This document shows, piece by piece, positions 33,001 through 36,000 of a DNA stretch of 64,000 nt. The stretch lies in assembly GCF_053078305.1 (NCBI RefSeq), contig NZ_CP166879.1; one strand, given 5' to 3'. The position numbers were made by a program. Position 1 is the stretch's first letter, and every line of letters begins with the position of its first letter.

Positions 33001-36000
33001 ATAAACCATGGAGGATAGCGGCATATTCATTTTTTCTGCCAGAGAACGACTGGTCAGACGGCCAGAAAAACGCAGCCAGCTTTTAACCCCTTCAAGCACT
33101 TTTGCATCAATCATGATTTATTTCCCCACCACATTATTAATGACGATATAAACGTATTTCATATTTCTTAACCCTTATTTTCTGTTTTCAGGCGCAAGCA
33201 GTCCCCTGACGCAAGCGCCATAATTAAAACGATGTGATATTTAAAGATTTAATGCGGTGTTATTTATTCAGTCCGGCGTCCTGTTCAAAAGGCTCGACAT
33301 GAAAACTTTCAGCGCCTTTATTCACCTTAATACCAGCAATCCCTTTCACCGCATCCGGCTCCGCCAGGACAGCTTGCTTATTCACTTCCTCTTTCGTGCG
33401 GATGAAGCGCTCAAGCCCCATACGACGCAGCATTTCAATCACACCTTCCACATCACGACTGACGCTGCATGATGGATTTCCCAGCCGCCATGACACCGTT
33501 CCGGTGGTCAGATTGGCAGTTTTGGTTTCGCCGCCGTTCGTCAGCTCATTGCGGTTGGTTTTACACCAGTCATGAATCCCTTTAAAAAGCACTTTGATTT
33601 CTTTTTTAAGGTTTTCAATCTGCGGCGTATAACGGGCGGTGATTTCTGCCACTTCATCATTCATCGCCGTTTCCAGGCGCAGCGCCTCTCGCTGAATATC
33701 ACCCAGAGTGCGGATATCGCGGCTGACTTCTTCGCGGGTCTGTGGTGCGGCCTCGGCTGCGGCCTTTAATTTTGTAACACGTTTAACCATTTTGTTTTCC
33801 TTATTGCAGTGCGCCTGATGCTTTATGCACACGGTGGCGTTTAATGATGGCATCCGCCCCAAAAGCCTGTACAGATGCCTGAAATTCCGCTGAGAGAAGC
33901 TGAATAATTGCAGGACTGTGATACTGGAGAATACTTGCATAAACGTCACAGAGTGACGTCGGGCTGTTCTCCGTATCACGTTCTGTTTTCACATCCACTC
34001 CAATCTTTTCATGCACTTCAACACAGTCATTGCCTGCCAGCTTTTCGTCATGCGAAACATGCTCAAATTCAAAAATAACGCGTACTTTGCTCATGGAATT
34101 ACCCCTGCTGATTAAATTCATTACCGTTAATAACCCCGGAAGCCATACCCCTGTCTTTCATGAATGCACTGGCTTTCATTGCCACAAGCTCTGCGAAGTT
34201 TCTGCTTTCTGCCAGCATAACCACCCCAAAAATCATGGCGGGTCCATTATCTTTCTTCTTTATTCCGGTTGAACGTATATCCAGACTTACCCCTCTGTGC
34301 GTGCTGCCATCAGAGTTTTTGCAGATAACATCTTCCTTGTATTCGAAAATAATGCGTACGACTTTACTCATCCTCTGGCTCTCGTTTTGTTCGGATAACT
34401 GACCCGGCGTCTGACCTGATGACAGAGCCGAACCATGAAGCAACTTCATACTTCCCAGTAAACCGTGCATCCGCTTATGCGGGTGGCTTTCACACGGCGG
34501 CGCAGGCCGTTGGTCTTAACGGTGATTTCAATTTCCTCACCACTCCCCTGAACCTCGCCTACCGGCGGCGTGGTTTTCAGTGCAAAACGTTGCGGATAGC
34601 GCTTACTGCGTTCCAGTACCGCACCGGCAAGCTCGGTCAGGCGACGTGCGCTGTTCAGGGAGTCGAATAAATTCATTTTTTTACCGCTGGATTGCATATT
34701 CATATAACACCTCGTTTAACTGATTTGTTCAGCACCGATAAAACGGCAAATATTGCTGTAAGTTTCTGTCGCACCTTCGCGATCAAGTCCAACAGATATT
34801 GCCATTCGGGTGCGATCATTAAATTCAAAGAGTAAATCGCCACATTCTTCACTGTCAGACATGGAGACTGCTTTGACGTTATCGAAATTAACCAGGTAAA
34901 AGCGTCCGTAAATATCAGGAATATTAAATACCGCCATAATCACACCTGTGAAAGTAATTCAGGGTTGGTGTAAACCTCTTTAAAGGCCGCATTAATATGT
35001 TTTTCTGTCAGCGCCGCGCCTTCACCGCTGGCGGTGAGCCACGCCTGGTTAAGCGTATGTGTCAGAACGCGTAACGCCCCCGGCTTTTCAGCGATAGCCT
35101 GCATGACGGCCAGCTCGGCCTCACCACTGATCCCCCACGCCCTGGCAATGGCCAGCACATCCGCCTTTTTGGCCTTGCGAAGTTGTTTTGTACGGGCAAG
35201 ACGGCTGAACAGGCGCGATAAATCATCAAAGGCGCGGCGTCCACCTTTAAACAATCCGCGCGGGTTACCAATAAGTACCATCCCGATCCCCGTGGCGTCC
35301 TGAATTGCCCGGAGTTGTTCCAGACCGTCAATACCAAGATGATCTGCTTCGTCAACAATCACCAGTCCACGTGTTCCCGTCAGGCGACGGCGGATGGCGC
35401 GGGATAATGCCCCTTTGTTCGCGCGGGTGTAATCAATCCCCAGCGCATCGGCCAGCTCCAGCAAACACTCCGTGACGCTGGAGTGCGCGGGCGACAGGGT
35501 GATCATCCAGGTGTTCGGTTGCTCCTGACAGTAATTACGGGCCGTGGCCGTTTTACCCACACCCGGTACGCCCACAATGACGTTAATACAGCCCATCAGG
35601 CGAACCGCCTGAAACAGTGCGCGCAGCTCCTGGACTGTCTGCGTTTCAACAAACTGTGGCGGCTCGGGCAGTGCGCTTTGTTTATTCCAGTTCTCATACC
35701 AGGAACGCAGGGAAGCAGCCACAGCAGCGTTATCGCCTTTATATTTTCCCTTACGGAAAGCCGATAATGTGCCGTCGGAAATTCCCGCCTCTCTGGCGAT
35801 GGCATACTGCGTCAGTACGCCGCCATCAATAAGTTCATCAATGGTCTTGATTACATCGTTAATATCAGTCATATTATTAACCTCTCATTTGATACCTTGT
35901 TTAATCAAATAACCTGAGTCGCCGCTCGGGTTATTTTTTTATTTCAGGCCAGCGGGTCATTTTCTTTTAATTTCGCTTCCAGCAACTGCAATCCCCGCTG

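What the first reader, a model, noticed from the sequence alone, without database searches (positions are those of the whole stretch)
33801..34371. Tandem pair of paralogous small early genes
Two adjacent ~90-97-aa ORFs begin with nearly the same signature (MSKVRVIFEFEH and MSKVVRIIFEYKED), each with its own RBS, then diverge. They sit between the B-proximal small genes and gam. Tandem duplication and diversification of small early proteins is typical of host-interaction or anti-defence genes.
Basis: seen in the sequence. Interest (0 to 1): 0.4.

Follow-up and report, generated by a model that had tools for sequence, protein, structure and literature searches.

The report
Diverged paralogous small genes before gam
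Two adjacent small genes in the early operon of a Mu-like E. coli prophage are diverged copies of one fast-evolving, uncharacterised protein family that always sits just before the gam gene; what they do is still unknown.

Summary
On the minus strand, orfA (34099-34371, 90 aa) and orfB (33801-34094, 97 aa) lie between a Kil homologue and Mu-type gam in a Mu-like prophage early operon. They share the MSKV..IFE start.

The similarity is not confined to the first 12 residues. An HMM built only from distant Salmonella, Klebsiella and Serratia orfB homologues hits orfA over residues 1-77. It still scores 15.6 bits with the first 14 residues removed (1000 shuffles: maximum 5.8). So they are true, old paralogues.

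- **orfB** is the core gene. It is single-copy and lies immediately upstream of gam (or of DUF3164) in the enterobacterial Mu-like prophage loci examined.
- **orfA** is an extra copy seen only in E. coli, and always with orfB.

The N-terminal strand is simply the most conserved part of the whole family. AlphaFold on 98 sequences (pLDDT 84.7) gives a long beta-hairpin plus two helices, with no significant structural or sequence match to anything characterised.

Both genes are the hypervariable spots of the operon. Alleles are 57-58% identical between prophages whose flanking genes are 91-99% identical, and dN/dS is 0.33-0.42 against 0.01-0.25 for most neighbours. This fits host-interaction or anti-defence proteins, but no function was shown. 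Interest is modest.

The parts
34099..34371 (-). orfA, 90 aa, basic (pI 9.25). It is the extra, E. coli-restricted paralogue (phrog_4107).
   Evidence: ORF and translation. phrog_4107 E 6.5e-55 over the full length. Annotated as a CDS in RefSeq relatives. Relatives found only in E. coli. Always followed by orfB and gam in the IMG/VR loci that extend far enough. pI.
33801..34094 (-). orfB, 97 aa, mildly acidic (pI 5.8). It is the core 'pre-gam' family member (phrog_2230).
   Evidence: ORF. phrog_2230 E 2.4e-37. Homologues in Salmonella, Klebsiella and Serratia Mu-like prophages at the same position. AlphaFold model pLDDT 84.7 (hairpin 4-39, helices 48-77).
34341..34371 (-). 5' end of orfA: start codon plus the conserved motif (ATGAGTAAAGTCGTACGCATTATTTTCGAAT), encoding the conserved first beta-strand.
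   Evidence: Lowest entropy and lowest dN/dS of the family.
34067..34094 (-). 5' end of orfB: the second copy of the same motif (ATGAGCAAAGTACGCGTTATTTTTGAAT).
34102..34106 (-). Shine-Dalgarno-like AGGGG for orfB, inside the last codons of orfA. The orfA stop (34099-34101) is 4 nt from the orfB ATG, so translational coupling is likely (inferred).
   Evidence: Read from the sequence.
34379..34383 (-). Shine-Dalgarno-like GAGAG, 7 nt upstream of the orfA ATG.
   Evidence: Read from the sequence.
34372..34445 (-). 74-nt Kil-to-orfA spacer. The homologous spacer precedes orfB directly in the single-copy prophage of E. coli CI5.
   Evidence: Alignment. CI5 annotation.
34446..34703 (-). Kil homologue, the upstream neighbour (context).
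   Evidence: phrog_2679 E 6e-41. PF26843 on the syntenic gene in relatives.
33260..33790 (-). Mu-type gam (host-nuclease inhibitor), the downstream neighbour, starting 10 nt after the orfB stop (context).
   Evidence: 54% identity to Mu Gam, E 1e-68. RefSeq annotation.

Best explanation
orfA and orfB are two old, strongly diverged paralogues of a single small-protein family. The family appears confined to Mu-like prophages of Enterobacterales.

**Family architecture.** An almost invariant N-terminal strand (M-S-x-x-V-x-V-I-F-x-F-E) begins a long beta-hairpin. Two helices pack on the hairpin, and a variable C-terminal tail follows.

**Genomic setting.** The genes are internal members of the repressor-controlled early operon (A, B, small gene, kil, orfA, orfB, gam). 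No own promoter or terminator was detected, and orfB is probably translationally coupled to orfA. orfB is the core gene: single-copy, directly before gam or DUF3164. orfA is an optional second copy present only in E. coli prophages of the type found in O157:H7.

**Most likely function (inferred, not shown).** They are dispensable early host-interaction proteins that bind a host factor, for host takeover or counter-defence. On this reading the conserved strand and helices form the scaffold or an oligomerisation surface, and the hypervariable hairpin and tail carry specificity. The second, oppositely charged copy would widen or alter the range of targets.

**What is shown.** Coding status, paralogy, synteny, the predicted fold of orfB and the hypervariability.

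**What is inferred.** Protein binding, the host target and any anti-defence role.

**Confidence.** The paralogy, family and synteny part is about 0.9. The 0.4 given below refers to the whole statement including the functional inference.
For: **Paralogy**
- hhalign probability 75.6%, rising to 84.8%, E 6.5e-6 over 74 columns with a broader orfB alignment.
- An HMM of 74 orfB homologues that are under 50% identical to the window's orfB hits orfA-family members at 15-24 bits, spanning orfA residues 1-77. All other Mu and window early proteins score 1.4 bits or less.
- orfA residues 15-90 alone score 15.6 bits. The maximum over 1000 shuffles is 5.8.
- The reverse search (orfA HMM against the orfB family) reaches 26.7 bits.

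**Real genes**
- dN/dS is 0.33 for orfA and 0.42 for orfB. The N-terminal strand of orfA is at 0.05.
- The family is conserved across genera.

**Synteny**
- The orfB homologue lies directly before gam or DUF3164 in Salmonella and Klebsiella loci.
- The order orfA, orfB, gam holds in every IMG/VR locus that extends far enough.
- No minus-strand promoter or terminator was detected, and there is no Rfam hit.

**Fold**
- AlphaFold pLDDT 84.7, pTM 0.71.

**Hypervariability**
- orfB is 58% identical, and orfA 57%, between prophages whose B, Kil, Gam, gp11 and gp12 are 91-99% identical.
- Between E. coli and Salmonella, orfB is 32% identical or less, while the flanking genes are 44-84%.
- dS between the two orfB allele types (0.66-1.05) far exceeds dS of the flanking genes. 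This points to allele shuffling by recombination.
- 19 of 20 orfA and 22 of 25 orfB distinct nucleotide alleles encode distinct proteins.

**Context**
- The neighbours Kil and Gam act on host targets. This rests on established knowledge and on the PHROG and RefSeq annotations.
- Mu-type Gam is reported to license Gabija targeting (PMC12407980), so counter-measures near gam would be plausible.
Against: - No functional evidence of any kind was obtained.
- There is no similarity to any characterised anti-defence, defence or host-takeover protein by sequence or by structure.
- dN/dS is below 1 overall and only about 0.8-1.0 in the C-terminal tail. Relaxed constraint explains the variability as well as positive selection does.
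- Hypervariable slots in phage operons can arise from mosaic recombination alone.
- The homology E-values are for targeted single comparisons. In the library-wide search, orfA did not appear among the significant hits of the orfB profile.
- The orfA fold was not predicted independently, and orfA sequences were part of the alignment used for the orfB model.
Confidence: 0.4

Rival explanations
1. The proteins are accessory factors of the phage's own DNA transactions rather than host-directed effectors. They might help Gam or DUF3164 protect DNA ends, or stimulate transposition and replication, like the classical non-essential 'arm'-type functions of the Mu semi-essential early region.
For: There is a strict positional link, 8-12 nt upstream of gam or DUF3164, in every locus examined. 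The genes share an early operon with A, B and gam. The conserved N-terminal strand and helices suggest a conserved partner.
Against: - The downstream partner differs between loci (Gam or DUF3164) while the family stays.
- Mu itself has Gam but no detectable member of this family; its E8 gene sits before gam.
- A partner as conserved as Gam (94-97% identity) does not explain 57-58% allelic divergence in orfA and orfB.
- orfA and orfB alleles assort independently of each other and of gam.
Confidence: 0.2
2. The two proteins are unrelated. The shared start would be only a short DNA-level repeat, such as a recombination linker or gene-conversion tract at a module boundary, or a translation-initiation element.
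For: - DNA identity is concentrated in the first ~30 nt (27/30) and is near random afterwards.
- The one-gene and two-gene arrangements differ by a 277-bp indel bounded by this motif.
- One orfB allele (P0046) carries an orfA-like extra residue (MSKIVRVIFEF).
Against: - Profile similarity persists after the first 14 residues are removed (15.6 bits against a shuffle maximum of 5.8).
- It covers about 75 residues.
- The middle of orfA (RSTGI..GPAMIFGVVML) matches distant orfB homologues (RSQGL..GPQHAYGLILK) better than it matches the adjacent orfB.
- The N-terminal strand is the most conserved segment across all genera, not only within this pair.
Confidence: 0.04
3. The proteins modulate the phage's own life cycle or the lysogen, for example timing of early-to-middle transcription, immunity control or superinfection exclusion, rather than countering host defence.
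For: Classical Mu genetics maps several poorly defined regulatory phenotypes to the semi-essential early region (own knowledge; the Mu record's annotation links kil with 'cim'). Small basic and acidic proteins could be DNA- or regulator-binding.
Against: - No helix-turn-helix, ribbon-helix-helix or other DNA-binding fold was detected.
- The genes lie inside the repressed early operon with no promoter of their own detected, so expression in the lysogen, which exclusion would need, is unlikely.
- A phage-internal regulatory target would not be expected to drive allelic hypervariability.
Confidence: 0.1

Closest known systems
PHROG families phrog_2230 (orfB) and phrog_4107 (orfA), both 'unknown function'
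   Same: Full-length, highly significant HMM matches: orfB E 2.4e-37 and orfA E 6.5e-55. These are the same proteins, already catalogued as hypothetical.
   Different: PHROGs keeps them as two unrelated families with no annotation. Here they are linked as one superfamily, given a predicted fold and given a defined genomic slot.
Semi-essential early region genes of phage Mu between B and gam (kil, E5, E6, E7, E8)
   Same: They occupy the same operon, position and size class, and are non-essential early genes. Kil, Gam, gp11, gp12, GemA and Mor homologues flank the pair in the same order as in Mu.
   Different: - There is no significant sequence similarity to any Mu early protein.
- Mu E6 (gp7, MAKVIIEIKN...) gives only a weak full-length hit to phrog_2230 (E 0.009), and hhalign does not support it (probability under 1%).
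- tblastn finds neither protein in Mu, SfMu or any other isolated phage genome.
Small early host-directed proteins of transposable phages: Mu/lambda-type Kil (septation), Mu Gam (blocks RecBCD at DNA ends), and Pseudomonas Mu-like phage proteins Tip and Aqs1 (PilB/LasR inhibitors; own knowledge, not tested here)
   Same: They are small, early-expressed, dispensable proteins encoded in the same kind of operon, next to Kil and Gam. The pair also shows strong allelic variation of the kind expected for host-directed proteins.
   Different: No sequence or structural relationship was found. No target, toxicity or phenotype is known for orfA or orfB.
Dimerisation-type alpha/beta sandwich domains (M20 peptidase dimerisation domain, ACT domain)

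Membership tests
phrog_2230 (orfB) | Significant full-length match to the family HMM | tested here: met
   E 2.4e-37, residues 3-97 against profile positions 1-88 of 89.
phrog_4107 (orfA) | Significant full-length match to the family HMM | tested here: met
   E 6.5e-55, residues 1-90 against profile positions 1-90 of 90.
Single orfA/orfB superfamily ('pre-gam' family) | Sequence homology over most of the length, independent of the shared N-terminal motif | tested here: met
   - hhalign 84.8%, E 6.5e-6, 74 columns.
- The distant-orfB HMM scores orfA at 18 bits and family members at 15-24 bits. Controls score 1.4 bits or less.
- N-terminally masked orfA scores 15.6 bits, against a maximum of 5.8 over 1000 shuffles.
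Single orfA/orfB superfamily ('pre-gam' family) | Same three-dimensional fold in both proteins | not tested
orfA aligns colinearly to the hairpin and helices, but no independent model exists.
Single orfA/orfB superfamily ('pre-gam' family) | Conserved genomic slot: early operon, directly upstream of gam or its positional replacement | tested here: met
   E. coli, Salmonella and Klebsiella loci.
Mu E6 (gp7) family | Significant sequence or profile similarity to Mu gp7 | tested here: inconclusive
   Mu gp7 hits phrog_2230 at E 0.009 over the full length. BLASTP finds nothing, hmmsearch gives 1.3 bits and hhalign probability is under 1%. The gp7 family is too narrow to build a profile.
Known anti-defence proteins (anti-CRISPRs, Ocr/Ard-type DNA mimics, lambda Gam, and similar) | Sequence or structural similarity to a characterised inhibitor | tested here: not met
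Known anti-defence proteins (anti-CRISPRs, Ocr/Ard-type DNA mimics, lambda Gam, and similar) | Demonstrated inhibition of a defence system | not testable with these tools
   This requires infection or plating assays.
Known anti-phage defence systems (PADLOC) | Match to a defence-system protein model | tested here: not met
   No hits at E 1 or better for either protein.
Kil / Mu Gam | Sequence similarity to the flanking characterised families | tested here: not met
   BLASTP and hmmsearch found no similarity. The real Kil and Gam homologues are the separate neighbouring genes.

The most novel reading that the evidence does not exclude
The 'pre-gam' family is a previously unrecognised class of counter-defence proteins with a new fold. 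On this reading its hypervariable hairpin and tail track host immune sensors, for example systems that detect Gam-protected DNA ends or RecBCD inhibition, such as Gabija, which Mu-type Gam is reported to license. E. coli prophages of the O157:H7 type would carry two oppositely charged paralogues (pI 9.25 and 5.8). These would act either as a heterodimer or as two inhibitors with different specificities.
Probability: 0.12. Interest if true: 0.65.

Novelty: new member of a known kind. Interest (0 to 1): 0.3.

Why it matters
The result links two 'unknown function' phage protein families into one. It gives that family a confident predicted fold and a fixed address in the genome: the gene immediately before gam in enterobacterial Mu-like prophages. 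It also shows that this slot is the fastest-evolving part of an otherwise conserved early operon.

That makes orfA and orfB reasonable, cheap candidates for screens of host-takeover or anti-defence activity in E. coli and Salmonella, including O157:H7 strains, which carry the pair. It remains a candidate list entry, not a discovery of function.

Tried and rejected
**Searches that found no characterised relative**
- Pfam, NCBIfam and PADLOC scans of both proteins gave nothing.
- PDB sequence searches with both family profiles gave only spurious hits, E 0.017 or worse.
- The AlphaFold-database library was unavailable.
- tblastn of both proteins against 50,697 phage genomes found only two Stx phages carrying an inserted Mu-like element, and not Mu, D108 or SfMu.

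**Possible link to Mu E6 (gp7)**
- It looked plausible by eye and through a weak PHROG hit.
- BLASTP, hmmsearch and hhalign did not support it.
- The gp7 family is too narrow to build a profile.
- The question is left open.

**Models and loci discarded**
- The first orfB model, from an 8-sequence alignment, was too weak to use (pLDDT 60).
- The 90-aa gene upstream of the Salmonella orfB homologues looked like a conserved orfA/orfB pair. It turned out to be an unrelated family.
- L056, reported as a 42%-identical orfA relative, is a frameshift-ridden copy and not a distant homologue.

**Regulatory and RNA elements**
- The promoter/terminator scan and the Rfam search found nothing on the coding strand.
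- The repeat search found no further copies of the 5' motif.

**Literature**
- Searches by protein accession, for O157 'Sp18', for the Mu semi-essential region and for transposable-phage anti-defence found no study of these genes.
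Full report
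**1. What is in the sequence**

The two ORFs are on the minus strand, at the coordinates given.
- orfA is 34099-34371 (90 aa, MSKVVRIIFEYKED...).
- orfB is 33801-34094 (97 aa, MSKVRVIFEFEH...).
- The orfA stop lies 4 nt from the orfB ATG, and an AGGGG Shine-Dalgarno-like element for orfB sits inside the last orfA codons.
- A GAGAG lies 7 nt upstream of the orfA ATG (read).
- The longer ORFs listed mechanically (106 and 123 aa) are not supported. RefSeq calls the MSKV starts, and the family alignment begins at that methionine in all genera.
- The 19-nt motif GTACGCRTTATTTTYGAAT occurs only at these two gene starts in the 64-kb window, against 0.03 expected. The first 30 aligned nucleotides are 27/30 identical, and the DNA then diverges.

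**2. Context**

The region is the early operon of a Mu-like prophage, read on the minus strand.
- Gene order is transposase A (35944-38034), B (34940-35872), a 75-aa gene (phrog_3375), a Kil homologue (34446-34703, phrog_2679), orfA, orfB and Mu-type gam (33260-33790, 54% identical to Mu Gam).
- Homologues of Mu gp11, gp12, GemA and Mor follow.
- The pair is 99.3% identical to E. coli STEC1585. It occurs in 231 of 5426 complete E. coli genomes, including many O157:H7 strains.
- The O157 Sakai genome has one Mu-like prophage, Sp18, which is predicted to be intact (PMC2669165). That the O157 copies are Sp18 is my inference.
- No promoter- or terminator-like site lies on the coding strand, and there is no Rfam match. 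The genes are therefore internal members of the early transcript.

**3. Are they paralogues?**

BLASTP alone is weak: 26% identity over 54 residues, E 0.001. The close relatives of each protein are E. coli-only.

An exhaustive profile search with orfB found a handful of about 30%-identical homologues. A follow-up profile search expanded these to 159 proteins. Those that carry an organism name are mostly from Salmonella enterica, plus Serratia and Klebsiella.

With this diversity the comparison becomes clear.
- hhalign of the orfA family against the orfB family rises from 75.6% (48 columns) to 84.8%, E 6.5e-6, over 74 columns.
- I built an HMM from only the 74 orfB homologues that are under 50% identical to the window's orfB. 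It scores orfA at 18 bits and orfA-family members at 15-24 bits, aligned over orfA residues 1-77. Every other small protein of Mu and of this prophage scores 1.4 bits or less.
- With the first 14 residues removed, orfA still scores 15.6 bits. The maximum over 1000 shuffles is 5.8 (mean -0.5, sd 2.1).
- The reverse search (orfA HMM against the orfB family) reaches 26.7 bits on a Klebsiella-type member.
- The middle of orfA (IRSTGIKKKDNGPAMIFGVVML) resembles distant orfB homologues (VRSQGLSNVDKCGPQHAYGLIL) more than it resembles the neighbouring orfB.

These E-values are for targeted comparisons. In the library-wide search, orfA was not a significant hit of the orfB profile. On balance the two are true homologues over nearly their full length.

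**4. Which copy is the original?**

- In Salmonella and Klebsiella loci there is one family member. It always lies 8-10 nt upstream of gam, or of a DUF3164 gene that takes gam's place. It is preceded by Kil and an unrelated ~90-aa gene.
- E. coli CI5 also has orfB only.
- In every IMG/VR locus with orfA that extends far enough, orfB and gam follow. The same holds in the RefSeq loci examined.
- So orfB is the core gene and orfA is an optional extra copy seen only in E. coli.
- orfA is 14-25% identical to every orfB lineage, including the adjacent one. The split is therefore old, or orfA evolved very fast or came from another lineage.
- The Kil-to-gene spacer that precedes orfB in CI5 is homologous to the spacer that precedes orfA in the window. 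The one-gene and two-gene states thus differ by a 277-bp start-to-start indel bounded by the shared 5' motif. This fits an ancestral tandem duplication. It also fits later loss of orfA by recombination between the two 5' repeats. The direction was not resolved.

**5. Why the N-termini look alike**

- Across 85 orfB-family sequences, the first 11 residues have a mean column entropy of 0.38 bits. Every other segment has 1.1-2.0 bits.
- Among E. coli alleles, dN/dS in the first 12 codons is 0.05 for orfA and 0.32 for orfB.
It is not the mark of a recent duplication.

**6. Structure**

- With 8 sequences, AlphaFold gave pLDDT 60.
- With the 98-sequence alignment it gave pLDDT 84.7 and pTM 0.71. 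The model has a long hairpin (strands 4-20 and 24-39), helices 48-58 and 60-77, and a disordered extreme C-terminus.
- Foldseek against PDB and BFVD found nothing at E 0.001 or better.
- There is no Pfam, NCBIfam, PADLOC or PDB sequence match.
- The fold therefore gives no functional lead beyond a hint that such two-stranded sheets usually pair with another subunit.
- orfA is basic (pI 9.25; family median 9.2) and orfB mildly acidic (pI 5.8; family median 5.8).

**7. Evolutionary behaviour**

- Between E. coli prophages whose B, Kil, Gam, gp11 and gp12 proteins are 91-99% identical, orfB is 58% identical. In another such pair, orfA is 57% identical.
- Between E. coli and Salmonella or Klebsiella-type loci, the flanking proteins are 44-84% identical, while orfB is 32% or less or undetectable.
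- There are two E. coli orfB allele types. Their mutual dS (0.66-1.05) far exceeds that of the flanking genes (about 0.1-0.25). At least one apparent intragenic recombinant exists (P0047). Alleles are therefore being shuffled.
- orfA and orfB allele types combine freely. This argues against tight co-adaptation of their variable surfaces.
- Overall dN/dS is 0.33 for orfA and 0.42 for orfB. B, kil, gam, gp11 and gp12 are at about 0.01-0.25 in most pairs.
- Variation is highest in the hairpin and loop (about 0.45) and in the C-terminal tail (0.8-1.0).
- Both are clearly coding genes with a constrained scaffold and variable surfaces. Positive selection is not demonstrated.

**8. Interpretation**

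The most likely reading is that these are dispensable early proteins that bind a host factor, for host takeover or counter-defence, as their neighbours Kil and Gam do. The second copy would extend specificity. A recent preprint reports that Mu-type Gam licenses Gabija targeting (PMC12407980). That makes counter-measures next to gam conceivable, but it is context and not evidence.

The main rival is a role in the phage's own DNA transactions, with Gam or DUF3164.
- The strict adjacency favours this rival.
- Three findings count against it: the interchangeable downstream gene, the absence of the family from Mu itself, and the mismatch between a conserved Gam and hypervariable orfA and orfB.

The idea that only a DNA motif is shared is essentially refuted.

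**9. Novelty and limits**

- Both proteins are already catalogued as hypothetical (phrog_4107 and phrog_2230, and RefSeq WP entries).
- Four things are new here: the link between the two families, the fold model, the defined 'pre-gam' slot and the hypervariability.
- No literature on these genes was found.
- An independent structure of orfA was not obtained.
- The dN/dS values use the Nei-Gojobori method on a few dozen alleles, without recombination-aware models.
- No anti-defence-specific profile library was available.
- No experiment was possible.

Noticed in passing
window 34372-34445 (compare L004 3068-3349, L013 3168-3449, L005 4732-5004): The window has only a 74-nt spacer between kil and orfA. 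Many relatives carry a ~90-aa gene there (motif GLIEFG..LPEGALPIV..LLVPGIPEA, no Pfam hit). In Salmonella and Klebsiella-type loci the same family is the gene directly upstream of the orfB homologue. It is another variable cassette of unknown function.
   Followed up: partly
L005 5303-5941; L010 4303-4941; L011 319-957: In some Salmonella and Klebsiella Mu-like prophages, a 212-aa DUF3164 (PF11363) protein occupies the exact position of gam, right after the orfB homologue. This suggests that DUF3164 replaces Gam positionally, and perhaps functionally.
   Followed up: no
window 33791-33979, minus strand (frame of gam): The gam reading frame stays open for 63 codons upstream of its ATG (a 239-aa ORF from a GTG at 33979), overlapping the 3' half of orfB. 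Several database 'proteins' (P0051, P0060, P0062) are orfB N-termini frameshifted into this frame, at different positions each time. They look like assembly errors rather than programmed frameshifting. At least one RefSeq genome has a 'host nuclease inhibitor protein' feature reaching into the orfB region (H34).
   Followed up: partly
window 31511-32062, minus strand: The C-terminal half of this 183-aa protein is homologous to Mu E8 (gp9) (32% identity, E 3e-9). In Mu, E8 is the gene directly upstream of gam. Here its homologue lies downstream of the gp12 homologue, and RefSeq names it inconsistently (AsnC family, SANT/Myb-like, or DNA-binding protein). By eye, the N-terminal half looks like a second copy of the same repeat.
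   Followed up: no
L001 6863-7282, compared with window 34703-34716: STEC1585, which is 99.3% identical to the window across orfA and orfB, carries a 139-aa gene between the 75-aa gene and kil. By eye it resembles Mu E7. The window lacks it. This shows mosaic gain and loss of cassettes in the B-proximal region even between very close prophages.
   Followed up: no
P0047 (E. coli orfB allele); P0046: P0047 combines the hairpin of orfB allele type II with the helices and tail of type I, so it is an apparent intragenic recombinant. P0046 (MSKIVRVIFEF, 98 aa) has an extra residue at the position where orfA has its additional valine. This may reflect exchange between the 5' ends of the two paralogues.
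   Followed up: no
L056 2501-3620: This IMG/VR contig carries orfA, orfB and gam broken by multiple frameshifts. It is either a decaying prophage copy or a low-quality assembly. The tool reported it as a 42%-identical relative of orfA.
   Followed up: partly
window 34716-34943, minus strand: The 75-aa gene after B (phrog_3375, unknown function) is also unusually variable: 78-79% identical between E. coli prophages whose B proteins are 98-99% identical, with dS up to about 0.8. It is a second fast-evolving slot in the same operon.
   Followed up: partly
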